The position numbers were made by a program, and so were the translations under genes. The notes below the pieces were generated by a model. The model did not search any database, was not told the origin of the DNA, and saw nothing but the letters and a program-made list of their open reading frames with translations. This document shows positions 1-19,174 of a stretch of DNA of 64,000 nucleotides, piece after piece. Each line of letters begins with the position of its first letter. Positions within the stretch are counted from its first letter, which is position 1. The stretch comes from an uncultured virus (IMG/VR IMGVR_UViG_3300009428_000005) (Duplodnaviria; Heunggongvirae; Uroviricota; Caudoviricetes), in IMG/VR virus record IMGVR_UViG_3300009428_000005. One strand, given 5' to 3'.

Positions 1-316
1 CGCGCGTATTGTCCGAACTACCCACCTAAAATAGAGGACCAATAAAGGACATAATCTACCATGGTCATGCTGAAGCATCACCTAACGGGTACTATCGTAC
101 CCTGTGTCTGAGAGTATAGATGACTTAGGCTAGTACTTGATATTAAACTAAATAGAACCTTCATAAGACATTGTAAGAGGTAGGGAGAACCTACTGCTAT
201 AGGGGTAGTATGGGTAGCATCTTACCAAGTCTATTAATAATACTAGAAGTATATTTAAAATATAGGAGAGAAAAGGCTATCCCTTGCCTGGTAAAACCAT
301 ATATAAACATATATAA

Positions 317-735
317 TCTAAAGACAACTAAAGATGATCTAAAGATCTAAAGAGAATGTAGGTAGAATAAGGATGGACTAATGTATAGAATAAAGTAAGA
401 AGGCGTATGGAAAGTAATAGAAGAAGTACAGGGGCATGTGTGTCGATGGTCGATCCATCCTATAGATTATAAAAATAAACAGCCTAATGCCTTGTCTATA
501 TGCTAAATTCTTCCATAGGCTATCTAAAGATTCATCTAAAGAAATCTAAAGATTGGGTAGGTTATATGCATATTAAATCGTATATTAAGGTATAAAGAGG
601 TATGGTAGAGAAGAAGATGATACAGATAGATAAAGAACTAGCCCTAAAGGTGAAGGGTATGTATCCAGACCTCTCATGGAATGCCATTGTAAGTAAACTA
701 GTATCTAAAGAGCTATCTAAAGATTCATCTAAAGA
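317..735. repeat. Three clusters of (T)CTAAAGA direct repeats, 10 copies
   Basis: Copies start at 317, 327 (ACTAAAGA), 338, 346; 523, 535, 545; 704, 716, 728. The 24-mer GCTATCTAAAGATTCATCTAAAGA is identical at 519-542 and 712-735. Confidence 0.9.
558..588 (+). promoter_or_regulatory. Early/host-sigma-type promoter (variant -33 box)
   Basis: TAG-N20-TATATTAA, preceded by TCG like the other copies; lies just upstream of ORF 602. Confidence 0.5.
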
Positions 736-838
736 CTCTGGTAGTACATACGCTACAGTAGATGATATAAAGGTACTGAAGGATAAGTTCTCTATGGTTA
801 TTACTCAATTGATCAAAGTAAATAAACTTAAACAATAG
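602..838 (+). CDS. Small protein, possible ribbon-helix-helix DNA-binding protein
   Basis: N-terminal pattern KMIQIDKELALKVK...DLSWNAIVSKLV resembles an RHH strand-helix-helix; promoter-like motif upstream. Confidence 0.5.
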   Translation: MVEKKMIQIDKELALKVKGMYPDLSWNAIVSKLVSKELSKDSSKDSGSTYATVDDIKVLKDKFSMVITQLIKVNKLKQ

Positions 839-869
839 TTGGTACCCTGCTATATTATTCGTATCTTTA
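839..869 (+). promoter_or_regulatory. Early/host-sigma-type promoter
   Basis: TTG(839-841)-N20-TATCTTTA(862-869); resembles the Bacteroidota -33 TTG / -7 TAnnTTTG consensus. Confidence 0.7.
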
Positions 870-893
870 TTATATATAAAGAGATAAAGCATT

Positions 894-1079
894 ATGGTTA
901 AAAGACTAAAGGAATGTATTGTGGGTGAGAGAGTCTTAGTAGACTGCTCAATGGTACAAGGATACAAAGGAGTGAATGAGGTGTTGGTACGTTCGATGGA
1001 TGCTGGAGAGATAGTAGTAGAGACATCTGATGGATCAAGAGTAGGCATGGATGGTTATGAGAAGGTCCAAACTCTCTAA
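894..1079 (+). CDS. Hypothetical protein, 61 aa
   Basis: ATG ORF directly after a promoter motif. Confidence 0.6.
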   Translation: MVKRLKECIVGERVLVDCSMVQGYKGVNEVLVRSMDAGEIVVETSDGSRVGMDGYEKVQTL

Positions 1080-1235
1080 ATCCTACCGCCCAATACGGTC
1101 AACCTGTGGTCATGGTGATCTAACGGTGATATAACACTGACGGTATAGTTCCCTAAGAGGTAGGTAGCCTGCGAGGCTGCGCCATACTAGGTCGTATATT
1201 TCTGATGATTTTTCGGTGTATAGGGTAATATATAT

Positions 1236-1451
1236 TTATATATTGCTAGATATCTCTTTAATGAGCCTGTCTATGTTCCTATTATATCTTGCATCTTCTA
1301 AAGCTCTATTCGAATCAAAGCTATTAGTTTTAAGATAAGGGTAGAAATGCTTAGTTTCCCAATGCAGTCTATATTCATACCCGCTTGGAAACTCTTCATA
1401 GCATTGAGAGCATCTAATTAAGTTTCTAATCTTCTTTATAGAATACTTCAA
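1236..1451 (-). CDS. C2H2 zinc-finger-like protein (start uncertain)
   Basis: CSQC-YEE-F-PSGYE-Y-RL-H-WETK-H matches classical C2H2 spacing. Confidence 0.6.
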   Translation of the reverse strand: MKYSIKKIRNLIRCSQCYEEFPSGYEYRLHWETKHFYPYLKTNSFDSNRALEDARYNRNIDRLIKEISSNI

Positions 1452-1512
1452 ATAACCCTATTATAAGCATTGCTATCATCAGAAGTCCTACTGCATAATC
1501 GTTCATCATCAT
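1426..1512 (-). CDS. Putative 28-aa membrane peptide
   Basis: Hand-translated MMMNDYAVGLLMIAMLIIGLFEVFYKED; ATGA overlap with the upstream ORF. Confidence 0.45.
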   Translation of the reverse strand: MMMNDYAVGLLMIAMLIIGLFEVFYKED

Positions 1513-1613
1513 TCTTTAACTTTATTACATCCGCCACATATTGTCCTATAAGCGGCATTTAAAGCTCCACATTCACAATTCCATGAATCGTCTACCAAAT
1601 TAAATTCTGCCAT
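1509..1613 (-). CDS. 34-aa zinc-ribbon peptide (RanBP2-like spacing)
   Basis: Hand-translated MAEFNLVDDSWNCECGALNAAYRTICGGCNKVKE, containing W-x-C-x-C-x3-N-x6-C-x2-C. Confidence 0.55.
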   Translation of the reverse strand: MAEFNLVDDSWNCECGALNAAYRTICGGCNKVKE

Positions 1614-1619
1614 AGTGCT

Positions 1620-1775
1620 TCAGTCTTTATAGGCTCTAAAAGTACAAGCATTACGTCCATTGATAAGAGGCATGCCATGTAAATCGTATGTTATAGAATT
1701 AACCTTTACCTTCTTATTCTTAAACCTACCTGTAAGTATATAGTCACCTGTCTTTATTCCTTGTAGCTTTATCAT
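1620..1775 (-). CDS. Hypothetical protein, 51 aa
   Basis: Hand-translated MIKLQGIKTGDYILTGRFKNKKVKVNSITYDLHGMPLINGRNACTFRAYKD; tightly packed in the leftward operon. Confidence 0.6.
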   Translation of the reverse strand: MIKLQGIKTGDYILTGRFKNKKVKVNSITYDLHGMPLINGRNACTFRAYKD

Positions 1776-1798
1776 TACTGAGTATTCTTTGATTCAAT

Positions 1799-1960
1799 TT
1801 AACTCTTCCATTGCATTAAAATATTGATAGAAATTAAAACATTGGTTACCACGGCTTGAATAATTAAAAGAGTTCTAATAAACGCGACCCTATCCGCTTC
1901 ATTTGTCTTTCCTTGCTTCTCACCTAATGCTTTAGCCCATAATCTCCATACCACTCTCAT
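1799..1960 (-). CDS. Small membrane protein, 53 aa
   Basis: Hand-translated MRVVWRLWAKALGEKQGKTNEADRVAFIRTLLIIQAVVTNVLISINILMQWKS; first gene after the leftward promoter; hydrophobic C-terminus. Confidence 0.65.
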   Translation of the reverse strand: MRVVWRLWAKALGEKQGKTNEADRVAFIRTLLIIQAVVTNVLISINILMQWKS

Positions 1961-1982
1961 TCTCTAACTTTACTACCTATTA

Positions 1983-2013
1983 TTAATATATGAACTTTTT
2001 GGTGGGTTTCCAA
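1983..2013 (-). promoter_or_regulatory. Leftward early/host-sigma-type promoter
   Basis: Minus strand reads TAGTTG-N20-TATATTAA. Confidence 0.7.
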
Positions 2014-2101
2014 CTAATAACAGAGAAATTTTTTGGCAAATTTTCCCCTATATACCCCTTTTTATATATACCTCAGTACTCCCATATGTGGATCCAGTAG
2101 C

Positions 2102-2245
2102 TTATGACTCAGTAGTATCTCTATTAGTAGCCTTCTTTTCTTTTTTGCCATCTAACATAGACATACTTGAATTGTTGCCATACTTAGATACTACTACCTC
2201 GAGGACTATAGCTAATATTATAACACATATTAAAAACGCTATCAT
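2102..2245 (-). CDS. Small membrane-anchored protein, 47 aa
   Basis: Hand-translated MIAFLICVIILAIVLEVVVSKYGNNSSMSMLDGKKEKKATNRDTTES; A-rich initiation region. Confidence 0.55.
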   Translation of the reverse strand: MIAFLICVIILAIVLEVVVSKYGNNSSMSMLDGKKEKKATNRDTTES

Positions 2246-2262
2246 ATCTTGTTTATTTAGTT

Positions 2263-2403
2263 ATGTAGGCAAGGAGGAAGGACTATAAAATTGCGGTGCA
2301 ACTCGTGCGCGTCTCGCGACGGCTTCGCCGTCTTGTTTATTTACCTATAGCCCTCACACCTCCACCAGCGAAGCGATCCTTTAACGGTTCCTGCTCTTCA
2401 CAT
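2263..2403 (-). ncRNA. Candidate structured RNA (sRNA or 5' leader), family unknown
   Basis: GC-rich island with nested complementary arms whose G-U pairs work only on the minus strand; promoter at the matching distance upstream. Confidence 0.6.
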
Positions 2404-2407
2404 ATAT

Positions 2408-2438
2408 ACAATATAAGAATATCATATCAGGATTCCAA
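2408..2438 (-). promoter_or_regulatory. Leftward early/host-sigma-type promoter
   Basis: Minus strand reads AGTTG-N20-TATATTGT; predicts a start site near 2403. Confidence 0.65.
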
Positions 2439-2475
2439 CTTGATTGGTAATTAACTTATCACTATATTTATCTAT

Positions 2476-2919
2476 ATGAAGCAGATTCAGAAAGATAATC
2501 TTTTCGCTATGTTTGAAGTAAGCGATGAAGAGGTGTACAAGGAGCATGGAGTAACGGGAGTTCTTAAAAATCCATATGTTCTAATGGGGATGGTAATTCG
2601 TGGTTTAGAGAATTACTATTTAATGGATGCACTATACTCTAAGAAATACCCAGAAGAGTATAAGAGACATACAAAGATGGTTAGGTATAAGTATTTTACT
2701 AACCTTATGGGTTATCTAGAGAGAATAGATTGGGAGGATATTAATGAGGCGTATAAGATATCAGATTCATTTGATTTTGCAAGTACTAATGAGGCTTTAG
2801 ATTTACTTAAAGATTATTTTGAGGGAATTGAATACTATGAAAAATGTAGTACCATTAAAAAAAGTCAAGATATACTCTATGAGGGTGCACTCAAGAATTT
2901 TGAGGTACCTAAAGTTTAA
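2476..2919 (+). CDS. Hypothetical protein with C-terminal UVR-like motif
   Basis: 147 aa; ends with YFEGIEYYEKCSTIK, resembling the UvrB/C coiled-coil motif. Confidence 0.6.
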   Translation: MKQIQKDNLFAMFEVSDEEVYKEHGVTGVLKNPYVLMGMVIRGLENYYLMDALYSKKYPEEYKRHTKMVRYKYFTNLMGYLERIDWEDINEAYKISDSFDFASTNEALDLLKDYFEGIEYYEKCSTIKKSQDILYEGALKNFEVPKV

Positions 2920-2936
2920 AAGAACCTGTTATTTAG

Positions 2937-2967
2937 TTGGCTACCCGAGTTATTATTCGTATATTTA
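2937..2967 (+). promoter_or_regulatory. Early/host-sigma-type promoter
   Basis: TAGTTG-N20-TATATTTA. Confidence 0.75.
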
Positions 2968-2992
2968 AGTATATATAAAAACAATAAAGGTT

Positions 2993-3433
2993 ATGGGAAT
3001 GATTCAAGAGTTAAAAGAGGAGATTGCAGAGATGCAGAATAGAAAAACTAGTTACCTAGCTATGGGTAATATTGGTTTATCAGAAGATTGTCAGTGGAGA
3101 TTAGATGGAATGAAAGAACGTTTAGAGGAGTATAGTTCTAAGTGGGGAGAGTATGTATATGTACTTTCTAATAAATCTATGCCTGGAATAGTAAAGGTTG
3201 GATTTACGACTACATCTCCTGAGCAGAGATTAAAGGAGATTAACTCAGCAACTGGTGTTATTGAAGAGTGGGAGACTGATTGGTATTTAGAGTGTGCAGA
3301 AGCACATGATTTAGAGCAAAAAACCCATGAATACCTTAAAGATTTCAGAGTACGTAAGAATAGAGAGGGTTTTAATGTTTCTTCTACTCAAGCTATTGCA
3401 GCAGTACAGAAGATAAATGAAGAAAGGTATTAA
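2993..3433 (+). CDS. GIY-YIG superfamily protein (T5orf172-like domain)
   Basis: YVYVLSNKSMPGIVKVGFTT..PEQRLKEINSATGV...LEQKTH...REGF. Confidence 0.8.
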   Translation: MGMIQELKEEIAEMQNRKTSYLAMGNIGLSEDCQWRLDGMKERLEEYSSKWGEYVYVLSNKSMPGIVKVGFTTTSPEQRLKEINSATGVIEEWETDWYLECAEAHDLEQKTHEYLKDFRVRKNREGFNVSSTQAIAAVQKINEERY

Positions 3434-3438
3434 ATTAG

Positions 3439-3469
3439 TTGCGTAACAAAGATATAGTTCGTATATTAA
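3439..3469 (+). promoter_or_regulatory. Early/host-sigma-type promoter
   Basis: TAGTTG-N20-TATATTAA. Confidence 0.75.
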
Positions 3470-3494
3470 GGTATAATAAAAAAAAATAAAGGTT

Positions 3495-4004
3495 ATGAGG
3501 TTAATTTCACTATTTTTACTGGGTTATTTCTTAAGTTCTTGTGAAAAGGAAGATATTCTTCCAGACTTATGTATAGGAGGGGATTGTAGCGTTGCATTTA
3601 AGGTAAATGCTCCACAAGATGCGAATGGTTACTACCATTTAAAGTTAAACTACGATGGGCAGTATGATCCTAGGTTTAGTATTGAGGTAATTGCTTCTAA
3701 AACAGATGAATTCTACCATTATAACAGTAAATCAGTAGTAACAGCAGGATTTTCCGGAGATATTTTCGTACAGGTACCACTTCAAACCGGAGAGTTAACA
3801 GAATTTATACCGTTAGTACAGGAGACTCGCTTATACTTACGCGATCACGGTAAAATACCTAATAAGATGTATACTAAACGGATAATAGGCCCAGTTTTAG
3901 AGGGTTTAAAGGGAGATACTTTAAATGTTAGTGGATATATTAATTGGGATGGAGGTAATAATTGGAAAGAAGAGGAAGTTTTTCTAAAGTTTATTATAGA
4001 ATAG
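3495..4004 (+). CDS. Lipoprotein
   Basis: Signal peptide MRLISLFLLGYFLSS-C (lipobox LSSC) followed by EKED. Confidence 0.75.
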   Translation: MRLISLFLLGYFLSSCEKEDILPDLCIGGDCSVAFKVNAPQDANGYYHLKLNYDGQYDPRFSIEVIASKTDEFYHYNSKSVVTAGFSGDIFVQVPLQTGELTEFIPLVQETRLYLRDHGKIPNKMYTKRIIGPVLEGLKGDTLNVSGYINWDGGNNWKEEEVFLKFIIE

Positions 4005-4035
4005 TTGCTATTCTGCCTTAGAAGTATTATCTTAA
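4005..4035 (+). promoter_or_regulatory. Early/host-sigma-type promoter
   Basis: TAGTTG-N20-TATCTTAA. Confidence 0.6.
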
Positions 4036-4150
4036 AAATATATTAATTAGTATATAAGATATAATAGTATAAATAGTAAACTTAATAAGTAATATAAATA
4101 TATAAATATATAAATATATATATAGTAATAATTAATCAAATAAATAACAT
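4036..4150. repeat. Extremely AT-rich tract with three tandem TATAAATA (4093-4116)
   Basis: Direct reading. Confidence 0.8.
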
Positions 4151-4885
4151 ATGTCTATAACAGCAGAAAAAATAGCCTCAAACTATGAAAAGCACTTAAA
4201 AATTGTAGAGACCTACATTACTAATCGTAAAGATCAAGTGCTAGCCTTACTTTCTTCGTTAGAAGATAATTATGTTATGGCTCCTGCTAGTGGAAAGACT
4301 TGGTATCATAATGCTTTTGCAGGAGGGTACGTAGATCATGTAAATAGAGTTGTAGAGTATGCGGTAAAGCAATCTAGACTCTATAAAGATATGGGAGGTA
4401 CTATAGATTATACAGAAGAAGAATTAGTATTCTCTGCTTTATTTCACGACCTAGGAAAAATAGGAGATGGAGTATCACCAAATTATATACCTCAGACTGA
4501 TAAATGGAGACAAGATAAACTCTCAGAGATGTATACTAATAATTCAGAATTGGATTTTATGCTAATCCCAGACCGCTCATTATATATTCTTCAAAACAAC
4601 GGAATTAAAGTAACACATAGGGAATTCCTAGCTATACGTTGCCATGATGGAGTTTTCGATAAAGCTAATGAAGCATATTTTTTTAGCCACCAGGAGGGTT
4701 CTAGACAGAAGACCTCTATTATATCAGTACTTCACTCAGCAGATTTCTTAGCTTCTAAAGTTGAATATGATATGTGGAAAAGAGATGGAGGTAGCTCTAA
4801 ACCTACTTCTAGGAAAGTTACTGCTTCAACTGGAAGACCAGTTAAAAGCTCAGAAGGATTATCTAACATATTAAAAAATATATAA
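4151..4885 (+). CDS. HD-domain phosphohydrolase (YhaM-like HD domain)
   Basis: APASG..YHNAFAGGYVDH, LFHDLGK, IRCHDG, LHSAD. Confidence 0.85.
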   Translation: MSITAEKIASNYEKHLKIVETYITNRKDQVLALLSSLEDNYVMAPASGKTWYHNAFAGGYVDHVNRVVEYAVKQSRLYKDMGGTIDYTEEELVFSALFHDLGKIGDGVSPNYIPQTDKWRQDKLSEMYTNNSELDFMLIPDRSLYILQNNGIKVTHREFLAIRCHDGVFDKANEAYFFSHQEGSRQKTSIISVLHSADFLASKVEYDMWKRDGGSSKPTSRKVTASTGRPVKSSEGLSNILKNI

Positions 4886-4886
4886 A

Positions 4887-5195
4887 ATGTTAACTTACCA
4901 AATAATAATTGCCATATTAGTTGCCGGCTTGATTTTTAGTTCTTATATTATTTATAACCTACTTAATGCAGTAGAAAAACATGAAGATATAATAGAAGAT
5001 CAAGTAAATTATTTACAGAATATATCTAATTCAATAACTCAAGGAAAACTACATCTTCAAAATCTCGATGAAAAGGGGGTATTTCAAAGCGACGATGAAG
5101 TAGGAACATTTTTCAAACAAATGCAAGCAGTACAAGAGGAATTGAATAGATACATGCTCCCAGAAAACTATGGCACGAAAGAAAGCGAAAGCTAA
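4887..5195 (+). CDS. Membrane-anchored hypothetical protein
   Basis: N-terminal hydrophobic helix followed by a coiled coil. Confidence 0.7.
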   Translation: MLTYQIIIAILVAGLIFSSYIIYNLLNAVEKHEDIIEDQVNYLQNISNSITQGKLHLQNLDEKGVFQSDDEVGTFFKQMQAVQEELNRYMLPENYGTKESES

Positions 5196-5871
5196 TTACT
5201 TTACTCAAGAAACAGAGTCCTACATAAAAGTATACAACAGATCATCAGATGTAGCTGAACGACAGAAGATCTTTACAGATCACATATACTTACCATTTTA
5301 CAAGCTTGCAGAGAACATTATACATACTTTTAAGTTCTACTATACGGATGTAAATAAAATTGAAGATCTCAAACACGAGATTGTTTCTGTTTTATTAGAA
5401 GAGAAGATTATGAAATTTGATCCCGATAATGGAGCAAAAGCATATTCGTATTTCGGAACAATAGTAAAAAGGTGGTTAATAAACTATAATAATAAGAACT
5501 ATAAAAAGCTAAAGCAGATTGGATCTTTTGATGAAATGTACGATTCATCTATTGAAGATAGAGGTATAGAGGAAGGTCATATTAATCTCTCTCAATTTAT
5601 AGACATGTGGGTTAAGGAAGTATATGAAGTACTTGACAATATGTTCGAAAAAGAATCAGATTTACAGATTGCTGATGCTGTTCTTACTCTATTTAAAACT
5701 CGTCAAGACTTAGATATTTTTAAAAAGAAAGCTCTTTACATCTATATAAGAGAGATGACTAACTGTGACACCCCCTACCTTACAAAGGTAATTAACGTGT
5801 TAAAAGAGGACTTTAAAAGGAAGTACCAAAAACTATACGACCAAGGATATCTTACAGATAAAACTTACTAG
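5170..5871 (+). CDS. Sigma-factor-like protein, probable late sigma (T4 gp55-like)
   Basis: Basic N-terminus with NYF, and region-2-like KFDPDNGAKAYSYFGTIVKRWL; lies just before the late structural operons. Confidence 0.65.
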   Translation: MARKKAKANYFTQETESYIKVYNRSSDVAERQKIFTDHIYLPFYKLAENIIHTFKFYYTDVNKIEDLKHEIVSVLLEEKIMKFDPDNGAKAYSYFGTIVKRWLINYNNKNYKKLKQIGSFDEMYDSSIEDRGIEEGHINLSQFIDMWVKEVYEVLDNMFEKESDLQIADAVLTLFKTRQDLDIFKKKALYIYIREMTNCDTPYLTKVINVLKEDFKRKYQKLYDQGYLTDKTY

Positions 5872-5895
5872 TCTATTTATTATAAATAAAACACC

Positions 5896-6273
5896 ATGAG
5901 TTTAGATAAAGAAATATTCAACGGCAAAACTCTTTCAGACCTATTCGGGGAGATACATGATAATTCTTCTACTACTAGGAACCAGGTAAAAAGTCTAATA
6001 AACGAATTAAAACCTCTTATAGAGAATATAGGGGATGCTACTTTAATTGTACCCATGATTAAAGAGTACATGGAAATTCAAGTAAAAAACGATGACGCTT
6101 TAATTAAACTGGCTACTATAGTACAGAGGATTGAAACAGCAAATGCAAATGGATCAGGAGATGAGATGTTTGACCTCTCAGAACTACAGGACTTATTAGA
6201 GGAGCAAGAAGCACTAGACAGTGAAACACAAGTAAAAATAGAAGAAAGTAAAGATGGCGAACAATCCGTATAG
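5896..6273 (+). CDS. Hypothetical helical protein
   Basis: 125 aa; TATTTATT late-promoter variant at 5874-5881. Confidence 0.7.
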   Translation: MSLDKEIFNGKTLSDLFGEIHDNSSTTRNQVKSLINELKPLIENIGDATLIVPMIKEYMEIQVKNDDALIKLATIVQRIETANANGSGDEMFDLSELQDLLEEQEALDSETQVKIEESKDGEQSV

Positions 6274-7444
6274 TCTAAATACCTTTTCAGGTGGAAGCCT
6301 TATGAGTAATGGTTCAACCGGCCAATCTTCATCCTCCGGCGGAATGTCCTTTGGGATAGTTTTAGATATACTGCTAAACGAAACCCATCCGGAATACGAA
6401 AACTATAATAAATCACAAGGTCTAAATGGGGTATTTTATACTCCTTATACAGACGGCGATGGTGATAATGAAACAGCTAACAGTTTTGCCTACTGCGATG
6501 CCTCTTTTCTTAAAAGGATACCAATACCTGGAGAGATAGTCGTAATAGAAAGACGCCCATCAGTATACACACTTACAAAAAATACCCCAAACGATAAGAC
6601 CAACATTAATAGATCCAAAGAAGGACTTTTAACATACTGGACAGGTATTGTTGCAGGCTGGAACCATCCTAATGCTAATGTAATGCCTAACGAAGACATT
6701 ACTGGATACATATACGGAGAGGACTTTGACCCAGAAAAAACAATAGCACCCCTTGGAGCTTTTCCCGGTGATACTATAATAGAGGGAAGGTTTGGGCAAT
6801 CTATTAGACTTAACGGAACTAAAGCAGAGTCTAATACAATTGTAGTAGAAGATAATAACGGTAAACCTACAATTCTAATAAGTAATGGACAGGCAGAGCC
6901 TGAAGACTCAATTAACCCGGTAAAAGAAGATATTAATAAAGATCCTTCTTCAATATACCTAACCTCGGACCATCAGGTAGAAATAGAACCTGCTAATGAT
7001 AAAAGAGAAGCATATATAGATCCTCCTATAACTCCTGAAGAATATAAAGGTTCGCAGGTTATAGTAAACGGAGGAAGATTATTTTTTAACGCTAAAGATG
7101 AAGGAGCGTTCATATCTGCTAAAGAAACTATCGGCCTAAATAGTAACATAGTAGCAGTAGACGGAGAACAATATGTAGCATTCGATGCTGATAAAATATA
7201 CTTAGGTGAAGCAGCTAAAAGGTTAGAAGACGAACCGGTACTACTAGGTAAGAGAACAGTAGACTTGTTAGAGGAAATAATAGATGAATTAGACGCTATA
7301 TATACTAATCTTGCTACTCTACCACCAGCTCCTCCAGCAGGAATTGCTAAACTAGTAGTATTAGGTAATATGCAAAAACCTTCAATACCCTTATTAAAGA
7401 ATAAACTTAGGAGAATAATGTCTGAAAAAGTATTTACAGAGTAA
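6254..7444 (+). CDS. Probable baseplate central spike/hub protein (gp5/VgrG-like)
   Basis: OB-fold-like N-terminus (RIPIPGEIV), GDTIIEGRFGQSIR, beta-rich C-terminus with IYLG...EPVLLG; upstream of gp25/gp6 homologues. Confidence 0.6.
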   Translation: MANNPYSLNTFSGGSLMSNGSTGQSSSSGGMSFGIVLDILLNETHPEYENYNKSQGLNGVFYTPYTDGDGDNETANSFAYCDASFLKRIPIPGEIVVIERRPSVYTLTKNTPNDKTNINRSKEGLLTYWTGIVAGWNHPNANVMPNEDITGYIYGEDFDPEKTIAPLGAFPGDTIIEGRFGQSIRLNGTKAESNTIVVEDNNGKPTILISNGQAEPEDSINPVKEDINKDPSSIYLTSDHQVEIEPANDKREAYIDPPITPEEYKGSQVIVNGGRLFFNAKDEGAFISAKETIGLNSNIVAVDGEQYVAFDADKIYLGEAAKRLEDEPVLLGKRTVDLLEEIIDELDAIYTNLATLPPAPPAGIAKLVVLGNMQKPSIPLLKNKLRRIMSEKVFTE

Positions 7445-8493
7445 TGCCATATATTAAATTTCCAAATAAACAAGAATTAGTAGCAGCCCTTGCCCCGCAA
7501 GTAGGTAAAACTCTTGGTATACTTAAACAAAAAGTCTTAAGTAAGCTATTTGAAGTGATAGACGACTTTAGAAGAGAAGGCTGTCCGCATCTACAAAAAC
7601 TAAATCAAGTTTCAAGGACAATCTCTCAAATGCAACGTACTATAAACAGTACTGCAAAAAAAACCAACAAGGTTAAGAGGATGGCTACTAAACTAGGCAT
7701 CCCATTAACAGGGTTAGAAATAGCAATTAATGTGATAGGTAACATACCTATTCCACAAGCAGTGCCCCCTGGTGTAGGTATACCCATATCTATCACTAAT
7801 AAATTTACAGAACAGCTAATACTTTTATTAGAAATGATTGCAGCTATAAAAGAAAATGTAAGCTCTATTGAAACTATGGTAGCACCGTCTATACTCTTTA
7901 TAGATAACATAAACAAGAAAGTACAATCAGCTAAACTACCAATTATAGCTTGCAAAATAGAAAATGCACTAAAAGAAGAAGTAACAAACGGCAAACTAAC
8001 AGAAGAACAGTTAATAGCTGCAGGATTACTAAATGATAAAGGAGAGTATATATTCACATCTCTTATACCTATATTCCTTGGTACTACTCAATTTAATACT
8101 GACGGAAGTACGTACTACCCTAATAACAACGAACAACAAGAACTAAGTGCTCAATCAGAAGCAGCAACTGTACTTAGCAGCGCTATAGAGCTACTTCCAT
8201 CTCTCGACGATTCAAATAGTTTAAAAGATTTAATAGATACATATCAAGCTACTTCCGATAGACAGACGAGTAACCTGTCAGATACACAGTACTCACATGT
8301 AGGACCAGACGGTACTGTATATAAGTTAAATGTAGAGTTAGATGTAGAAGGGTCTACTATAGCACCTCAAAGGTTCGCAGTAGCTAAAAACCTAAATAAT
8401 ATAGTAGTGCTAAGAGGTGCTAAATCCTACAGTTCTTCTGAAACTGTACTAATAGATGAAATTAAATTCAGAATAGATAATCAACTTGCATAA
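7444..8493 (+). CDS. Hypothetical baseplate-region protein
   Basis: 349 aa, coupled to the previous gene. Confidence 0.65.
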   Translation: MPYIKFPNKQELVAALAPQVGKTLGILKQKVLSKLFEVIDDFRREGCPHLQKLNQVSRTISQMQRTINSTAKKTNKVKRMATKLGIPLTGLEIAINVIGNIPIPQAVPPGVGIPISITNKFTEQLILLLEMIAAIKENVSSIETMVAPSILFIDNINKKVQSAKLPIIACKIENALKEEVTNGKLTEEQLIAAGLLNDKGEYIFTSLIPIFLGTTQFNTDGSTYYPNNNEQQELSAQSEAATVLSSAIELLPSLDDSNSLKDLIDTYQATSDRQTSNLSDTQYSHVGPDGTVYKLNVELDVEGSTIAPQRFAVAKNLNNIVVLRGAKSYSSSETVLIDEIKFRIDNQLA

Positions 8494-8499
8494 TACAAC

Positions 8500-8507
8500 T
8501 ATTTATA
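8500..8507 (+). promoter_or_regulatory. Putative late promoter TATTTATA
   Basis: Recurring intergenic octamer; only 3 nt before the ATG at 8511. Confidence 0.6.
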
Positions 8508-8510
8508 TAT

Positions 8511-8957
8511 ATGAAACTCGATCAATTAAGAAAAATCATACGAGAAGAGGTTAGATCTGCTATAAAGGCAGAGCTACAAGAAGTTATGAACGAGGCTGTT
8601 AAAGCAGCCAGTGCTCCAACAACTATGACTGCAGCCCCAGAAGCAGGTAATACAAGCTGGTCGGCACCGAAAAAAGAATTAAAAAAACAACAATGGACAT
8701 CAGGTAAGTCGTCCACGTTAGAAGAAATGTTAAATCAGACTGCTAACACCATGTCTAACGAGGAATATAAAAACATATCAGGAACCTCAGGTCCAATTGC
8801 ACCTAATTTTGCTTCAAGAGGAGCATCTCAAATGGGAATGACAGAAAATACAGGTCCTGCACCAGGTCTTGATTTATCCACACTTCCATTTTTAAAAAAT
8901 GCAGGCGCTATATATAAAGCCTCAATAGAAAAAGATAAAGAAAAAGGACGTAGATAA
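8511..8957 (+). CDS. Hypothetical protein with MKLDQLRKIIREE leader
   Basis: 148 aa ORF. Confidence 0.7.
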   Translation: MKLDQLRKIIREEVRSAIKAELQEVMNEAVKAASAPTTMTAAPEAGNTSWSAPKKELKKQQWTSGKSSTLEEMLNQTANTMSNEEYKNISGTSGPIAPNFASRGASQMGMTENTGPAPGLDLSTLPFLKNAGAIYKASIEKDKEKGRR

Positions 8958-9367
8958 TGGCATTTGAAGTAACAAGACTTAGCGTAATAGACACACAACC
9001 TAGTAAAGCAGTAGGGGTAGCCCTTCCGTTTTCTGGAAAAGCTGTTTTTAACTCTACCTACACGTCTAAAGATGCACTTAAAACCAATATAATCAATTAC
9101 TTCTTAACAGCCAAAGGAGAACGCTTTATGAATCCTAATTTTGGGAATAGACTACAAAACTTACTTTTTGATAATCTAACACAAGAAAAGGTCAGTCAAA
9201 TTCAATCAACTGTAGAAAGAGATATGGAAGTATTATTTCCTAGAGTAAATATAATCAACCTAACTACAGTAGGAGACCCAGACACACACACAGTTCAGTT
9301 TGCAATGTCGTACACTGTTCAAGATACTAACATAGAAGATGAAGTAATTATTAACTTCGAACAATAA
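8957..9367 (+). CDS. gp25: Baseplate wedge subunit, gp25/GPW family
   Basis: LKTNIINYFLTAKGERFMNPNFGNRLQNLLFD...FPRVNI. Confidence 0.9.
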   Translation: MAFEVTRLSVIDTQPSKAVGVALPFSGKAVFNSTYTSKDALKTNIINYFLTAKGERFMNPNFGNRLQNLLFDNLTQEKVSQIQSTVERDMEVLFPRVNIINLTTVGDPDTHTVQFAMSYTVQDTNIEDEVIINFEQ

Positions 9368-11184
9368 TGGCACAACAAGAAAGAGACATAAAGTACGTAA
9401 ATAAGGAGTTTGGAGACTTCAGACAAGGGCTGATAGAATTAGCTAAGAACTATTTCCCCGACGCCTATAACGACTTCTCACCCACATCACCTGGTATGAT
9501 GTTTATAGAAATGGCCTCATATCTAGGAGATGTACTATCCTTCTACCAAGATACACAACTTCAGGAAACCTTCTTACAACACGCGAAGAACCCATCTAAT
9601 CTATATTCTTTAGCCTACATGATGGGCTATAGGCCTAAAGTTTCAGCTGTATCTAGCACAGTATTAACAGTTACGCAGAGAGTAGCAGCACAAGGTTCAA
9701 CCTACACCCCTAACTATAATCAAGCATTAAAAATCACTGAAGGAGCCACAGTAACATCAACTGTATCAGGTTCAACCACTTTTACAACTTCTGAACCAAT
9801 TGACTTTAGTTTTTCTAGTTCCTACGATCCAACAGACGTAACTATCTTTTCACTAGATGGAGGACAACCTGCTGAATTTTTATTATCCAAAAAAGTACTA
9901 GTTACTTCAGGAGCACCAAAAGTTACAACCTCAACCTTTACAACAGCAGAGAAATTTGCCACTATAGAATTAGGAGACACTAATATAGTAAAAGTACAAA
10001 GTATAGTAGATAGTGATGGCAATGAGTGGAAAGAGGTTCCTTTTTTAGGACAAGATACCGTATTTCAAGAGGTAACAAATAGTGCAACAGATAGTAACTT
10101 AGTCCCCTCTACCCTTAATTTAGTTAAAGCACCAAGAAGGTTTGTCACTAGGTTTACATCAAAAGGAGTATTACAAATACAATTTGGGTCCGGTATAACT
10201 GGGACAGATAATGATTCTTTCCTTCCAAACCCAAATGAACAGATAACAGGAACTAAGCAAGACGTTAATAAATTAGACTATGCTTATGATCCTTCTAATT
10301 TTCTCTTTACAGGTGCATATGGTATATCACCTACAAATACTACATTAACTATAACCTATATAGTAGGAGGAGGAGTAGCATCAAATGCTCCAGCAAACTC
10401 TATTACAGCACTCGGAACAGTAACTACATCAGCAACAGACAGCTCTTATACCTCAACACTAGCATTTAATAACGTTGAAGCCGCTACAGGAGGAGGAGAC
10501 GGTGATTCAATTGATGAACTTAGACAAAACTCTCTCCGTTCATTTGCTGAGCAACAAAGAATGGTAACAGAAAACGACTTCACAGTAAGAGCATTATCAA
10601 TGCCTACTCAATTCGGATCTGTTGCTAAAGTATATGTAAGTAAGGGATTAGCTACTTTAAATAGTGAACAGCAAAATTCTGATGTTAATTCTTTAGCATT
10701 AAGCATGTATACGTTAGGGTACGATATTAATAAAAAATTAGTTAATACTAGTTCGTCTTTAAAAGCTAACCTTAAAAAATACCTTTCTCAATATATAATG
10801 CTTACTGATGCAATCAATCTTAAAGATGCATTCATAGTTAATATAAAAGTTAAGTTTGAGATAGTAGCTCTTCCAAATGTTTCTTCTAGAGACGTACTTC
10901 TTTCCTGTACAGGAGAACTTAAAGAGTATTTCAGTATAAGTAAATGGAACATTAACCAACCTATTAACTTATCTAGCATATATACACTATTAGATAAAGT
11001 AAAAGGAGTACAAACAGTAAAAACAGTAGAAGTAGATAATTTAACAGGCGGTAAATATTCAACATACGCATACGATGTGAAAGGAGCTACTAGAAATAAC
11101 ATAGTATACCCTTCATATGATCCATGTATATTTGAAATAAAATATCCAAATTCCGATATTGAAGGACGTGTAACAACATTATAA
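9367..11184 (+). CDS. gp6: Baseplate wedge protein, T4 gp6/J-like
   Basis: YNDFSPTSPGMMFIEMASYLGDVLSFY, SLAYMMGYRP, IQFGSG, ATGGGDGDSIDELR, QRMVTENDF. Confidence 0.85.
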   Translation: MAQQERDIKYVNKEFGDFRQGLIELAKNYFPDAYNDFSPTSPGMMFIEMASYLGDVLSFYQDTQLQETFLQHAKNPSNLYSLAYMMGYRPKVSAVSSTVLTVTQRVAAQGSTYTPNYNQALKITEGATVTSTVSGSTTFTTSEPIDFSFSSSYDPTDVTIFSLDGGQPAEFLLSKKVLVTSGAPKVTTSTFTTAEKFATIELGDTNIVKVQSIVDSDGNEWKEVPFLGQDTVFQEVTNSATDSNLVPSTLNLVKAPRRFVTRFTSKGVLQIQFGSGITGTDNDSFLPNPNEQITGTKQDVNKLDYAYDPSNFLFTGAYGISPTNTTLTITYIVGGGVASNAPANSITALGTVTTSATDSSYTSTLAFNNVEAATGGGDGDSIDELRQNSLRSFAEQQRMVTENDFTVRALSMPTQFGSVAKVYVSKGLATLNSEQQNSDVNSLALSMYTLGYDINKKLVNTSSSLKANLKKYLSQYIMLTDAINLKDAFIVNIKVKFEIVALPNVSSRDVLLSCTGELKEYFSISKWNINQPINLSSIYTLLDKVKGVQTVKTVEVDNLTGGKYSTYAYDVKGATRNNIVYPSYDPCIFEIKYPNSDIEGRVTTL

Positions 11185-11187
11185 ACA

Positions 11188-12243
11188 ATGGCAGTATATA
11201 GAATATATCCAGAAAAAGACACCTTCCTATTTAGCACACCAACTATTGCTGGTCTATATGGAAATGCTGGTCGTGATGAGATTTTAGAAATAGGTGGCTA
11301 TCCTGATCCTAGTTTTCCACTCACAGGAAGAACTAGTAGGACTCTAATACAATTTAAACAGTCAGACATAACTTCTGCTTTAACAGATAAAGTATCAGGA
11401 AATTATTCTGCAAGTATTAATCTAGCTCTAGCAACAGCTGGAGAAATACCAACATCTTTTACAGTCTTCGCTAATCCAGTTTCTTCCTCCTGGACAGAAG
11501 GGGTAGGTAAACAAGCAGATAATCCTGTAAATAGAACAGGAGCAACCTGGAAATATAAGGATGCAGCAACAACTCAATGGACTACTCTAGGAGGAGACTA
11601 TTTAGCAGTATCCCAAAGCTCGCAAGCTTTCGATAAGACATCTACTTATGATATTAATATGGACGTAACATCTGCTACTAAAGCATTTGCAAGCAGTTCT
11701 ATAGCTAATAATGGATGGTTATTAAGAATGGAATCTGCATACGAAGGGTACACTAGTGCAAGCATACACTTGAAGTACTTTGGATCTGATACGAATACTA
11801 TATTTCCACCTTACTTACAGTTTAAATGGGACGACTCTTCAACAGCTGGCTCTTTAACTGAACTTACAACAGACATAGCAACCATTAGTATAAAGAACGC
11901 TAAAGCAGAATACACAGACTCAGATAAAAGTAGATTTAGATTAGCGGCACGACCTAAATATCCACCGAGAACATTTGTAACAGCTTCTATCTACACGACA
12001 AACTACAGACTACCAGCTACTACATATTGGGGCATACGAGATGAATATAGTGAAGAAATGATTATTGATTTTGATACCAACTATACTAAGGTATCCTACG
12101 ATAGTAGCGGAAGTTTCTTCGATATATATATGGATACACTACAACCAGAAAGGTACTATAGGCTGTTAATAAAAACAACTCTGAACGGGAGTGACTTAGT
12201 AATTGATAATAAAAACATATTCAAAGTTGTAAGAAATGGCTAA
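11188..12243 (+). CDS. Virion structural protein (baseplate region)
   Basis: 351 aa beta-rich protein in the baseplate operon. Confidence 0.6.
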   Translation: MAVYRIYPEKDTFLFSTPTIAGLYGNAGRDEILEIGGYPDPSFPLTGRTSRTLIQFKQSDITSALTDKVSGNYSASINLALATAGEIPTSFTVFANPVSSSWTEGVGKQADNPVNRTGATWKYKDAATTQWTTLGGDYLAVSQSSQAFDKTSTYDINMDVTSATKAFASSSIANNGWLLRMESAYEGYTSASIHLKYFGSDTNTIFPPYLQFKWDDSSTAGSLTELTTDIATISIKNAKAEYTDSDKSRFRLAARPKYPPRTFVTASIYTTNYRLPATTYWGIRDEYSEEMIIDFDTNYTKVSYDSSGSFFDIYMDTLQPERYYRLLIKTTLNGSDLVIDNKNIFKVVRNG

Positions 12244-15481: not shown

Positions 15482-15483
15482 AG

Positions 15484-16398: not shown

Positions 16399-16413
16399 AA
16401 TAAAATTTTCATA

Positions 16414-16421
16414 TATTTATA
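16414..16421 (+). promoter_or_regulatory. Putative late promoter TATTTATA
   Basis: Intergenic octamer upstream of 16440. Confidence 0.65.
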
Positions 16422-16439
16422 TAAAATAACAATAACAAA

Positions 16440-17096: not shown

Positions 17097-17097
17097 A

Positions 17098-18126: not shown

Positions 18127-18129
18127 TGA

Positions 18130-19173: not shown

Positions 19174-19174
19174 A

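What the first reader, a model, noticed from the sequence alone, without database searches (positions are those of the whole stretch)
2263..2438. ~140-nt structured RNA on the minus strand with its own promoter and paired 5'/3' ends
Seen: a GC-rich non-coding island in an AT-rich genome. On the minus strand, 5' AUGUG..GCAG can pair with 3' UUGC.UACAU, GGAGG with CCUCC, and GAGGGCUAUA with UAUAGUCCUU. Several of these pairs are G-U and would be A-C mismatches on the plus strand, which fixes the orientation. The stem closes a multiloop holding GACGGC-GAA-GCCGUC and UUGC-ACC-GCAA hairpins. A TTG-N20-TATATTGT promoter (2438-2408) predicts a start near 2403, where the pairing begins. I do not recognise it as a tRNA, SRP RNA, known ribozyme or riboswitch. 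Inference: an undescribed early phage sRNA (for example an RNA polymerase or protein decoy) or a regulatory leader for the 47-aa membrane ORF 2245-2102.
Basis: partly seen in the sequence, partly recalled or inferred. Interest (0 to 1): 0.75.

Follow-up and report, generated by a model that had tools for sequence, protein, structure and literature searches.

The report
Displaced phage CG-hairpin module, not sRNA
The GC-rich island is this phage's single, displaced and frame-broken copy of a short CG-hairpin sequence that related marine phages keep, in the sense direction of their genes, right after a stop codon and usually at the start of a secreted lipoprotein gene, so it is probably not a new small RNA gene on the opposite strand.

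Summary
The island is real: it is the strongest GC peak of the window, lies in a divergent intergenic region, and has no Rfam, tRNA or tmRNA match. The proposed minus-strand fold is only marginally better than shuffles (z -1.7 to -2.0). Its closing helices are made of flanks that have no homologues.

The core (2287-2338, homology to about 2382) is a conserved element found once per genome in 70 of 74 syntenic phage loci and in at least 120 IMG/VR contigs. It always lies in the sense orientation of the genes, which is the plus strand here. It sits 10-42 nt after the stop of the preceding gene.

In most relatives it is overprinted by the N-terminus of a secreted protein (..LRAFRAA..). The codons are fixed as CGC GCG TTT CGC GCG GCG in a genome where such codons make up about 2.5%. 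The constraint is therefore on nucleotides. G.U wobbles favour a plus-strand hairpin.

The window copy is displaced to 5' of the 147-aa gene, broken in all frames, and among the lowest-scoring. A credible minus-strand promoter (2438-2410) probably transcribes its antisense as the roughly 155-nt leader of the 47-aa ORF. Nothing shows that this structure is selected.

Verdict: this is not an independent sRNA. It is a displaced copy of an undescribed plus-sense cis element whose function is unresolved.

The parts
2287..2338 (+). Conserved core of the element: a 5' flank AAAAUUGCGGUGCAACUC, the weakened HP1 (CGCG-UCU-CGCG, 2308-2318), and HP2.
   Evidence: CM R1 hit of 43.1 bits, E 1e-9, the only significant hit in the window. 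nhmmer E 4e-15. Aligned with 31 relatives.
2286..2288 (+). TAA directly 5' of the element, 12 nt before the ACTC/ACTT reference point. This is the modal spacing of the upstream gene's stop codon in relatives. It ends the plus-strand open frame 2088-2288.
   Evidence: 116 of 136 distinct loci have an upstream ORF stop 10-42 nt before the reference, with the mode at 11-12. ORF listed. Codon LLR of that ORF is -3.9, which is shadow-like.
2318..2342 (+). HP2 (GACGGC-UUC-GCCGUC) followed by UUGUUUAUUU. This is terminator-like on the plus strand.
   Evidence: It is the only terminator-like site in 1500-3200 and the site with most G-C pairs among the 8 in 1-20000, which is not enriched against 9.8 expected. 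z -3.2 against mononucleotide shuffles.
2339..2382 (+). Degenerate remnant of the signal-peptide, lipobox and early mature coding region that follows the element in relatives. No single frame is intact.
   Evidence: blastn homology reaches window 2357-2382. Three-frame translations: f1 KLRCNSCASRDGFAVLFIYL*, f0 KIAVQLVRVSRRLRRLVYLPIALTPPP.., f2 ..ATASPSCLF..
2410..2438 (-). Promoter-like TTG-N20-TATATT for minus-strand transcription. It would make the antisense of the element a leader of about 155 nt.
   Evidence: Motif scan. Window 2402-2440 is 82% identical over 39 nt to L032 746-784, where the cassette precedes a 68-aa membrane ORF by about 20 nt.
2440..2468 (+). Promoter-like TTG-N20-TATATT in front of the 147-aa gene (start 2476).
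   Evidence: It is one of five equally spaced, correctly oriented copies clustered at 1985-3467.
2102..2245 (-). 47-aa ORF with an N-terminal hydrophobic helix. It is the first ORF downstream of the minus-strand promoter.
   Evidence: Homologues occur only in the near-identical records L001-L003. Codon LLR of real against shadow frame is +1.6, which is weak.
2247..2264 (+). Direct repeat of 2331-2348 (16 of 18 nt). It is a possible recombination scar at the left edge of the module.
   Evidence: family D1.
2993..3433 (+). T5orf172-domain gene. In relatives the element usually follows its stop codon.
   Evidence: Pfam PF10544, E 2.8e-17. PHROG matches named endonuclease and homing endonuclease. 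Synteny.
3434..3494 (+). The canonical junction for the element. Here it is empty and holds only a promoter cassette and AAAGGTTATG.
   Evidence: Sequence. No CM or nhmmer hit.
3495..4004 (+). Lipoprotein orthologue with its own short signal peptide (MRLISLFLLGYFLSSC|EKED). It lacks the element-encoded N-terminal extension.
   Evidence: tblastn finds it in 45 loci. N-termini of relatives.

Best explanation
The island is the window's only copy of a conserved plus-sense cis element of about 40-55 nt: a 5' flank AAAWYKCGNGGCAACUU, a CG hairpin such as CGCGCG-UUU-CGCGCG, and often a second GC hairpin. Related marine Bacteroidota-type myophages carry it once per genome, just after the stop codon of an early gene (a T5orf172-like gene or the 147-aa gene).

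In most relatives the next ORF starts upstream of the element and reads through it. The element then encodes the Arg/Ala-rich n-region (..LRAFRAA..) of a secreted lipoprotein or another secreted protein. In other relatives it is non-coding and is followed by an early-type promoter.

Shown: the homology, the sense orientation, single copy per genome, the spacing from the stop codon, the extreme fixation of synonymous codons, and wobble changes that keep the hairpin on the plus strand.

In this phage a rearrangement placed the module 5' of the 147-aa gene, inside a block of about 380 nt that relatives lack. Its coding frames are broken and its core is degraded.

Inferred: the multi-helix minus-strand fold is the reverse complement of these sense hairpins plus unconserved flanking complementarity. 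It is probably transcribed from the 2438 promoter as an incidental long leader of the 47-aa ORF.

Inferred and weaker: in the family, the element works as an RNA hairpin in the sense transcript that marks the boundary behind the upstream gene. It could be a barrier or 3' stabiliser, or a protein-bound site. It also acts as a conserved linker at which flanking genes are exchanged.
For: Homology and orientation.
- blastn and nhmmer find the core in relatives fetched through the neighbouring 147-aa gene, always on that gene's strand.
- CM R1 hits 50 of 74 loci at E<=0.01, all on the plus strand.
- A variant form is present in 21 of 21 loci of the distant clade.
- The union is 70 of 74 loci.
- There is one significant copy per complete genome in G001, G002 and G003; G003 has a further hit at E 0.27.
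- A pattern scan returns at least 120 further contigs with one match each.

Context.
- 92 of 120 loci have an ORF reading through the element. 79 are the lipoprotein homologue and 13 are a different secreted protein. 27 are non-coding.
- An upstream ORF stop lies 10-42 nt before the element in 116 of 136 distinct loci.

Nucleotide-level constraint.
- GCG is 33 of 1341 Ala codons and CGC is 14 of 572 Arg codons in 46 long window ORFs.
- Inside the motif, 62 of 62 Ala codons are GCG and 27 of 29 Arg codons are CGC.
- The 5' flank GGCAACTT is read in two different frames, GNL and WQL.

Strand.
- For HP1, 98.2% of cells pair on the plus strand, 12 of them G.U wobbles. On the minus strand 90.8% pair, with 16 A-C type mismatches.
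- In the distant clade, three G.U pairs account for 40 of 42 cells on the plus strand.
- The roughly 70-nt core is more stable on the plus strand in 23 of 32 sequences.

Window copy.
- It scores 43.1 bits, lower than 45 of the 50 hits.
- All three frames are broken.
- The canonical junction 3434-3494 is empty.
- A block of about 380 nt lies between the conserved upstream region and the 147-aa gene.
Against: - In the window itself the minus strand folds better than the plus strand: -47.2 against -38.2 kcal/mol, z -1.97 against -0.62.
- The small hairpin UUGC-ACC-GCAA has 30 of 124 U.G cells on the minus strand that would be mismatches on the plus strand. However, its central pair is broken in 14 of 31 sequences, and 500 of 500 shuffles reach its paired percentage.
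- No compensatory double changes were found in any helix, so hairpin selection cannot be separated from selection for two CpG tracts.
- Core folding energies are not better than dinucleotide shuffles.
- The terminator reading is weak. Only 3 of 16 non-coding loci have a hairpin plus T-run on the plus strand. The 18 of 22 in coding loci may simply reflect T-rich hydrophobic codons.
- The window copy keeps the TAA spacing, a strong HP2 with a U-run, and a downstream promoter, as in non-coding relatives. It may therefore still be functional rather than a relic.
- Plus-strand transcription across it is not shown.
- Only near-identical records share the window arrangement, so conservation of this copy cannot be judged.
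Confidence: 0.58

Rival explanations
1. One reading: an independent, structured minus-strand sRNA of about 140 nt with its own promoter, acting in trans, for example as a protein decoy.
For: A credible promoter motif lies at 2438-2410 and is homologous to a real promoter cassette. The minus-strand fold has z of -1.7 to -2.0 and is more stable than the plus strand in the window. There is no Rfam match.
Against: No terminator-like site follows on the minus strand, and the 47-aa ORF begins 18 nt after the proposed 3' end. The closing helices lie in sequence without homologues. The conserved core is sense-oriented and mostly coding in relatives, where the minus-strand upstream sequence is a lipoprotein ORF without a conserved promoter. 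There is no covariation.
Confidence: 0.05
2. A functional structured 5' leader. The antisense copy of the module has been co-opted to control stability or translation of the 47-aa membrane-protein mRNA transcribed from the 2438 promoter.
For: The order promoter, leader of about 155 nt, then ORF is clear. Neighbouring genes with the same promoter type have leaders of about 20-25 nt, so the long leader stands out. The 47-aa ORF is weakly more gene-like than its plus-strand shadow, LLR +1.6 against -3.9. The leader folds stably.
Against: There is no evolutionary test, because the arrangement exists only in records that are 99-100% identical. The fold is barely better than shuffles. The ORF has no homologues elsewhere. 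Metatranscriptome contigs gave no cover here, so nothing can be said either way.
Confidence: 0.15
3. The window copy is still a working plus-sense unit of the 'stem-loop then promoter' kind. It would sit behind a plus-strand transcript that starts at the conserved upstream region (about 2040-2090), with the hairpins and U-run ending or insulating that transcript before the 147-aa promoter. Alternatively, the conserved 40 nt are a sequence-specific protein-binding site in RNA (nut-like or a translational operator) or in DNA, whose position within the early region is flexible.
For: The element is nearly universal (70 of 74 loci) and is retained here despite relocation. TAA lies at the modal 12-nt spacing. 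HP2 with its U-run is the clearest terminator-like site of the region. A promoter follows, as in non-coding relatives. The strict conservation of the linear 5' flank across both clades is unlike ordinary terminators.
Against: The core is degraded: HP1 is reduced to 4 bp, and only 5 of the 50 hits (L009, L025, L047, L048, L051) score lower. The plus ORF in front is shadow-like. Plus-strand transcription here is not shown. The element is dispensable in some relatives: L013, L019 and L037 have no hit, and the closest isolate, Flavobacterium phage immuto, has only a degenerate remnant.
Confidence: 0.2

Closest known systems
PeSL (promoter-early stem-loop) composite terminator/promoter cassettes of T4-like phages (PMC4122927: abstract and passages read; PMC2839356: search listing and start of abstract only)
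   Same: It is a short conserved stem-loop placed behind one ORF and in front of an early-type promoter of the next, within a region of small variable genes. Different genes are found on either side in different phages, and the window shows a local rearrangement. The promoter part (TTG-N20-TATATT..AAAGGTTATG) is repeated five times within 1.5 kb.
   Different: The stem-loop part is single-copy per genome, whereas PeSLs are multi-copy. It has a strictly conserved linear 5' flank. In most genomes it is translated as part of a signal peptide. Recombination at the element is inferred, not shown.
Intrinsic (Rho-independent) terminator
   Same: On the plus strand the window has a 6-bp GC stem with a triloop followed by UUGUUUAUUU. 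In relatives the element lies right after a stop codon.
   Different: The best-conserved hairpin, HP1, is followed by GCGG rather than a U-run. Only 3 of 16 non-coding loci meet a hairpin plus T-run criterion. In most genomes the element lies inside an ORF that must be transcribed through. Sequence conservation is far higher than is usual for terminators (recalled).
Functional RNA or DNA elements embedded in coding sequence, detected as synonymous-site constraint (general concept, recalled)
   Same: There is near-absolute fixation of rare codons (CGC, GCG) over about 7 codons, while the neighbouring protein sequence and the reading frame of the flank vary.
   Different: The function here is unknown. 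The same element also exists outside ORFs (27 of 120 loci and the distant clade). This suggests the ORF overprinted a pre-existing non-coding element.
Lambda-type nut site (boxA linear element plus boxB hairpin just behind a stop codon; recalled, not tested)
   Same: The architecture is similar: a conserved linear segment of about 17 nt immediately followed by a short conserved hairpin, located just after the stop codon of an early gene, once per genome and at the head of a long co-oriented gene block.
   Different: There is no sequence similarity, no known N-like protein, and no terminators identified downstream. Translation through the element in most genomes would be expected to disturb such a complex.

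Membership tests
Any Rfam 15 family | Covariance-model score at or above the family's gathering score | tested here: not met
   There were 0 gathering hits in the whole window. With E<=10 over 2000-2700 there were two chance-level hits outside the island. There were 0 hits at E<=1 in 8 related loci.
tRNA / tmRNA | ARAGORN-recognisable cloverleaf or tmRNA | tested here: not met
   0 genes in the window.
Independent phage sRNA gene (minus strand) | Own promoter upstream on the same strand | tested here: inconclusive
   TTG-N20-TATATT is present at 2438-2410 and is homologous to a gene-proximal cassette in L032. This is motif and homology evidence only. No transcript data exist (one search gave no cover).
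Independent phage sRNA gene (minus strand) | Own 3' end or terminator before the next ORF | tested here: not met
   No minus-strand terminator-like site lies in 1500-3200 or next to the element. The 47-aa ORF start follows directly.
Independent phage sRNA gene (minus strand) | Structure kept by covariation in homologues on that strand | tested here: not met
   RNAalifold finds only 4 invariant pairs. HP1 has 16 mismatches and no wobble on the minus strand. Hairpin 3 shows no signal above shuffles. The closing helices have no homologues.
Intrinsic terminator (plus strand) | GC-rich hairpin directly followed by a U-run | tested here: met
   Window 2318-2332 plus TTGTTTATTT.
Intrinsic terminator (plus strand) | Feature retained across homologues where the element is non-coding | tested here: not met
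   3 of 16 non-coding loci on the plus strand and 3 of 16 on the minus strand, against 18 of 22 coding loci. Background is 17 of 760.
PeSL-type terminator/promoter cassette | Stem-loop behind an ORF followed by an early promoter of the next ORF | tested here: met
   Seen in the window (element, then promoter 2440-2468), in non-coding relatives and in the distant clade.
PeSL-type terminator/promoter cassette | Several near-identical copies per genome flanking variable ORFs | tested here: not met
   The stem-loop part is single-copy in G001, G002, G003 and G005. Only the promoter part is repeated.
Bacteroidota lipoprotein signal peptide (coding sequence) | One open frame with a start codon, basic n-region, hydrophobic h-region and lipobox Cys, continuing into a mature protein | tested here: not met
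   In the window copy, all three frames are interrupted or lack an h-region and lipobox in register. The feature is met in relatives and by the window's own gene 3495-4004.
Solitary CRISPR-repeat-like unit (RNA anti-CRISPR) | Matching repeat arrays in host genomes | tested here: not met
   The pattern scan of 185,579 species genomes gave 22 loci with one match each, in high-GC or unclassified taxa. None is titled Bacteroidota and none is an array. The scan uses an exact pattern, so diverged repeats would be missed.
Lambda-type nut site | Binding by an N-like antiterminator and read-through of downstream terminators | not testable with these tools
   Only the architecture (linear box plus hairpin behind a stop codon) could be compared.

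The most novel reading that the evidence does not exclude
The family-wide element is a new kind of cis-acting sense-strand signal: a sequence-specific linear box plus CG hairpin placed 10-42 nt behind the stop codon of an early gene, once per genome. It would be bound by a phage or host factor, as a nut-like antitermination site, a translational operator or a processing site. It would gate expression of the surface lipoprotein and the conserved block behind it (HD phosphohydrolase, 102-aa gene, sigma-like gene). It is so constrained that signal peptides were overprinted on it without a single synonymous change. In this phage it was moved to the head of the plus-strand block.
Probability: 0.25. 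Interest if true: 0.65.

Novelty: new variant of a known kind. Interest (0 to 1): 0.4.

Why it matters
For the finding as stated, the result is deflationary. The 'structured sRNA' is the reverse complement of a sense-strand module plus chance flanking complementarity.

What remains of interest is the module itself. It is a sequence of about 40 nt kept almost letter for letter across phages whose neighbouring proteins are only 38-54% identical. It occurs once per 110-190-kb genome. It is read as a signal-peptide n-region in two thirds or more of genomes, using codons that are otherwise about 2.5% of their class, and it is non-coding in the rest.

This is a clean natural example of an ORF overprinting a nucleotide-level signal. 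It also gives a defined, testable target for working out early-gene regulation in uncultured marine Bacteroidota phages, for example by recoding synonymously, by compensating the hairpin, or by pulling down binders.

Tried and rejected
- **RNA evidence.** Four metatranscriptome runs (X15-X18, Logan contigs) were laid on 1500-4200. Contigs cover only 1500-1894, 2497-2831, 3059-3350 and 3458-3498. Nothing covers 1955-2409. Contigs show no strand or ends, so there is no evidence either way.
- **Earlier scan notes.** None exist for this genome.
- **Replication-origin idea.** The cumulative GC-skew minimum of the window falls at 2471. Over the whole G001 and G002 genomes the genes are co-oriented and the skew is monotonic, so there is no support.
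- **CRISPR-repeat or host-sequence idea.** There were 22 loci with one match each, in high-GC or unclassified taxa; none is titled Bacteroidota and none is an array.
- **Second hairpin HP2 as a conserved feature of the main clade.** Mean z is -0.6, and the plus strand is more stable in 19 of 32. It is not robust. It is clear only in the window, a subset of sequences, and the distant clade.
- **Terminator as the conserved function.** This was weakened.
- **Model R2.** It was built on the distant clade and was too narrow to align both clades: 17 hits in 92 sources. No joint structural alignment was obtained.
- **Mixed-clade RNAalifold.** It failed because of the CG register shift.
- **Intergenic comparison.** Aligning the window's intergenic region with those of L053 and L049 gave no useful homology.
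- **T5orf172 remnant.** A remnant of the 3' end of a T5orf172-like gene left of the element could not be shown. Only one blastn hit reaches 2271.
- **Link to the 'E' element.** Relation to the second GC-rich repeat family was tested with nhmmer and not found.
- **Closest isolate.** Flavobacterium phage immuto has only a degenerate remnant at the junction and is CM-negative.
- **DNA search of cultured phages.** A search with a relative's element gave only a chance-level hit to an Enterobacter phage.
- **Not used.** Protein structure prediction, complex prediction and the large protein searches were not used, because they do not bear on the question.
Full report
**1. What is at 2263-2438**

The region lies in the gap between minus-strand small ORFs (1236-2245) and the plus-strand ORF that starts at 2476.
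- GC reaches 0.55 at 2301-2400, against a window mean of 0.347. 2289-2337 is one of only three 40-nt windows with GC of at least 0.65, and the only non-coding one.
- Rfam gives nothing at gathering thresholds over the window. At E<=10 it gives nothing over the island.
- ARAGORN finds no tRNA or tmRNA.
- The minus strand of 2255-2410 folds to -47.2 kcal/mol, with z -1.97 and 7 of 200 dinucleotide shuffles as good. The plus strand folds to -38.2 kcal/mol, z -0.62.
It does not contain the claimed pairing of the extreme 5' and 3' ends.

The description is therefore largely accurate, but the fold is only marginally better than chance.

**2. Relatives, and where the sequence sits in them**

The window is 97% word-identical to a complete 177-kb IMG/VR phage record, G001. 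The closest isolate is Flavobacterium phage immuto, at 58.8% amino-acid identity in the HD phosphohydrolase.

Using the neighbouring 147-aa protein I fetched 75 related loci.
- blastn and nhmmer with the island found its GC-rich core in most of them. It was always on the same strand as the 147-aa gene, which is the plus strand of the window. There it lies downstream of that gene, not upstream.
- The usual gene order is: 147-aa gene, T5orf172-like gene, element, lipoprotein, HD phosphohydrolase, 102-aa gene, sigma-like 233-aa gene.
- A covariance model of the core (R1) hits 50 of 74 loci at E<=0.01, all on the plus strand.
- The more distant clade carries a variant: AAAAUUUUCGGGUCRAAAU, GCGCGC-GAU-GCGCGU, GGGGCC-UUC-GGCCUU. 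It was found in 21 of 21 loci tested, 16 of them distinct.
- Together that is 70 of 74 loci. L013, L019 and L037 lack the element, and L035 ends too early.
- Complete genomes have one significant copy each: G001, G002, G003, and the 68%-complete G005. G004 has none, because its contig ends at the locus.
These were not de-duplicated against the first set.

**3. What it is in relatives**

- Translating around the element shows an ORF that starts at an ATG overlapping the upstream stop and reads through the element in 92 of 120 pattern-derived loci.
- The product begins M..K[IF][SA][WGV]QL[RC]AF[RC]AA or ..KSRCNLRAFRAA. A hydrophobic stretch and a lipobox follow (for example ALTSC|EKE).
- 79 of these are homologues of window ORF 3495-4004.
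- 13 are a different secreted protein with an SPase-I-like site (..LQAQ|S..).
- 27 loci, and all of the distant clade, are non-coding. There the element follows a stop codon, and 40-100 nt later comes a TTG-N20-TAT(A/C)TT promoter and the next gene, which has its own ordinary signal peptide.
- The gene in front of the element varies: T5orf172-like in 50 loci, the 147-aa gene in 13, and neither detected within the flank in 57.
- In L105 the order is 147-aa gene, element, T5orf172-like gene.
- In 116 of 136 distinct loci, an ORF of at least 50 codons ends 10-42 nt before the ACTT reference point. The mode is 11-12 nt.

**4. The constraint is on nucleotides, not on the peptide**

- In 46 long ORFs of the window, GCG is 33 of 1341 Ala codons and CGC is 14 of 572 Arg codons.
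- In the same lipoprotein genes outside the N-terminus, GCG is 8.2% of 134 Ala codons and CGC is 1.9% of 104 Arg codons.
- Inside the motif of 21 synteny-derived genes, 62 of 62 Ala codons are GCG and 27 of 29 Arg codons are CGC.
- The flank GGCAACTT is conserved although it is read as GNL in some genomes and as WQL in others.
- Arg to Cys changes (CGC to TGC) are tolerated. They cost charge but keep a G.U pair.
- A CG-repeat hairpin translates to Arg/Ala in any frame, which suits a signal-peptide n-region.

I therefore infer that ORFs overprinted a pre-existing non-coding element.

**5. Which strand**

- For the CG hairpin HP1, 98.2% of 168 cells pair on the plus strand, 12 of them G.U or U.G. 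On the minus strand 90.8% of 173 cells pair, with 16 mismatches and no wobble.
- In the distant clade, three G.U pairs (14, 12 and 14 of 14 sequences) exist only on the plus strand.
- Cores of about 70 nt are more stable on the plus strand in 23 of 32 sequences, by a mean of 1.7 kcal/mol.
But its central pair is broken in 14 of 31 sequences, and shuffles reach its paired percentage 500 of 500 times.
- No helix shows compensatory double changes. The apparent flip from CGCGCG to GCGCGC between clades can be a one-base register slip.
- 46-nt cores fold no better than dinucleotide shuffles.

The orientation of the genes and the wobbles favour a plus-sense RNA. This is a tilt, not proof, and a DNA-level role is not excluded.

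**6. The window copy**

- It scores 43.1 bits, lower than 45 of the 50 hits in relatives.
- HP1 is reduced to CGCG-UCU-CGCG.
- HP2 (GACGGC-UUC-GCCGUC plus UUGUUUAUUU) is the strongest of all. It is the only terminator-like site in 1500-3200.
- Homology extends to about 2357-2382, into the former signal-peptide and lipobox region. The three frames read KLRCNSCASRDGFAVLFIYL*, KIAVQLVRVSRRLRRLVYLPIALTPPP.. and ..ATASPSCLF.., so no signal peptide is encoded.
- The canonical junction 3434-3494 holds only a promoter cassette. The window's lipoprotein has its own short signal peptide.
- Window 1975-2090 is homologous to the sequence that lies directly 5' of the 147-aa gene in L053, L010, L005, L018, L021 and L059. 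A block of about 380 nt (about 2095-2475) is therefore extra here. It holds the 47-aa ORF, the element and a divergent promoter pair.
- An 18-nt direct repeat (2247-2264 and 2331-2348, 16 of 18 identical) may mark a recombination junction.
- Only records that are 99-100% identical share this arrangement, so conservation of the copy cannot be tested.

**7. Transcription in the window**

- TTG-N20-TATATT is not enriched over the whole window: 14 copies against 8.8 +/- 3.1 in shuffles.
- However, five copies with identical spacing cluster at 1985-3467. Each is correctly oriented in front of an ORF (2013-, 2438-, 2440+, 2937+, 3439+), usually with a leader of about 25 nt.
- The 2438 minus-strand copy is 82% identical over 39 nt to a cassette in L032 that precedes a 68-aa membrane ORF by about 20 nt.
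I infer that the antisense of the module is transcribed as a leader of about 155 nt for the 47-aa ORF.
- Codon statistics weakly favour that ORF (LLR +1.6) over the overlapping plus ORF 2088-2288 (LLR -3.9). Known small ORFs score 0.3-38.
- Whether the plus strand is transcribed here is unknown.

**8. Mechanism**

- Shown: the identity, orientation, copy number, position behind a stop codon, and nucleotide-level constraint of the family element, and the displaced, frame-broken state of the window copy.
- Inferred, at about 0.55-0.6 for the identity claim as a whole: the minus-strand fold is a by-product and not a selected sRNA.
- For the family function I commit, with low confidence, to a sense-strand RNA hairpin that marks the boundary behind the upstream gene. 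It would be a barrier or 3' stabiliser, or a protein-bound site. It would also be a conserved linker at which flanking genes are exchanged.
- A plain intrinsic terminator is unlikely. HP1 is followed by GCGG. Only 3 of 16 non-coding loci show a hairpin plus T-run. The 18 of 22 in coding loci can be explained by T-rich hydrophobic codons. Background is 17 of 760.

**9. Comparison with known systems**

- The nearest described analogue is the PeSL composite terminator/promoter cassette of T4-like phages, which mediates modular shuffling (PMC4122927: abstract and passages read; PMC2839356: listing only). It shares the order stem-loop, promoter, ORF and the variable neighbours. It differs in that the stem-loop here is single-copy, has a strictly conserved flank, and is mostly translated.
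- The architecture also recalls a lambda nut site (recalled, untested).
- It is not a member of any Rfam family.
- It is not a CRISPR-like repeat of sequenced hosts: 22 loci with one match each, in high-GC or unclassified taxa; none titled Bacteroidota and none an array.
- I searched the paper library only for PeSL and for the lipoprotein export signal. I did not search for prior description of this element, so 'undescribed' rests on Rfam alone.

**10. Verdict**

The sRNA interpretation is not supported. The 'leader of the 47-aa ORF' alternative is physically plausible but untested. The real object is a displaced copy of an undescribed, strongly constrained sense-strand element. Interest is moderate (0.4), and it comes from the family-level element rather than from the window locus.

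Noticed in passing
window 1-24 (3' end of a copy); G001 15706-15763, 17086-17157, 145725-145786; G002 5167-5241, 40948-41018, 42362-42422: A second, multi-copy GC-rich intergenic element lies on the plus strand. It has a purine/pyrimidine hairpin GAGGGG-CGUUUU-CUCUCUC, sometimes a GAA-triloop hairpin, and then CCACGCGCGAAUUUAA shortly before the next start codon. nhmmer does not link it to the element studied here.
   Followed up: partly
window 1985-3467: Five near-identical promoter-plus-leader cassettes (TTG-N20-TATATT ... AAAGGTTATG) each sit in front of a small ORF: 2013-, 2438-, 2440+, 2937+, 3439+. The same type is seen in relatives and in Flavobacterium phage immuto (L203, about 6030-6090). 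It looks like a mobile early-promoter cassette.
   Followed up: partly
window 3495-4004: The lipoprotein has the lipobox LSSC followed by EKED. This fits the Bacteroidota surface-lipoprotein export signal C-X-K-(D/E)2 (PMC5080379, passages read). Relatives have CEKE, CSKDD, CTPDD and similar, plus conserved Cys motifs (PCETGYC, CxGGDC). It may be a surface-exposed, superinfection-related protein.
   Followed up: no
loci L080, L087, L125, L147, L155, L156, L159, L164, L170, L178, L181, L194, L197: The same element-encoded N-terminus (..NLRAFRAAA..) is fused to a different, non-lipoprotein secreted protein (..LQAQ|SIFITEQRVEADVKVYV..) that sits in front of the HD phosphohydrolase gene. One 5' module thus serves two unrelated mature proteins.
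   Followed up: partly
window 2993-3433 and related loci: The T5orf172-domain gene has weak PHROG matches named endonuclease and homing endonuclease. It is present in only part of the loci and can lie on either side of the element (L105: 147-aa gene, element, T5orf172). This is as expected of a free-standing mobile nuclease gene.
   Followed up: partly
window 1236-2245; G001 and G002 whole records: Nearly all ORFs of at least 120 aa in these genomes of about 170 kb are on one strand, and the cumulative GC skew is monotonic. The minus-strand cluster of small ORFs at 1236-2245 is a local exception. The homologue of ORF 1799-1960 is on the other strand in L005, which suggests a local inversion.
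   Followed up: partly
G001 and G002 whole records: CpG is strongly depleted, with observed/expected of 0.58-0.60. CGCG occurs 22 times against about 139-141 expected from base composition. GpC is not depleted (1.02-1.03).
   Followed up: no
window 2247-2264 and 2331-2348; 2202-2210 and 2279-2287: Short direct repeats bracket or lie beside the module: TCTTGTTTATTTAGTTAT and TCTTGTTTATTTACCTAT, and AGGACTATA twice. They are possible scars of the rearrangement.
   Followed up: no
window 5170-5871: A 233-aa protein is highly conserved across relatives (68-76% identity in the listed hits). It has no Pfam or PHROG match. I called it sigma-like only from its position and my reading of the sequence, and this label is not tested.
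   Followed up: no
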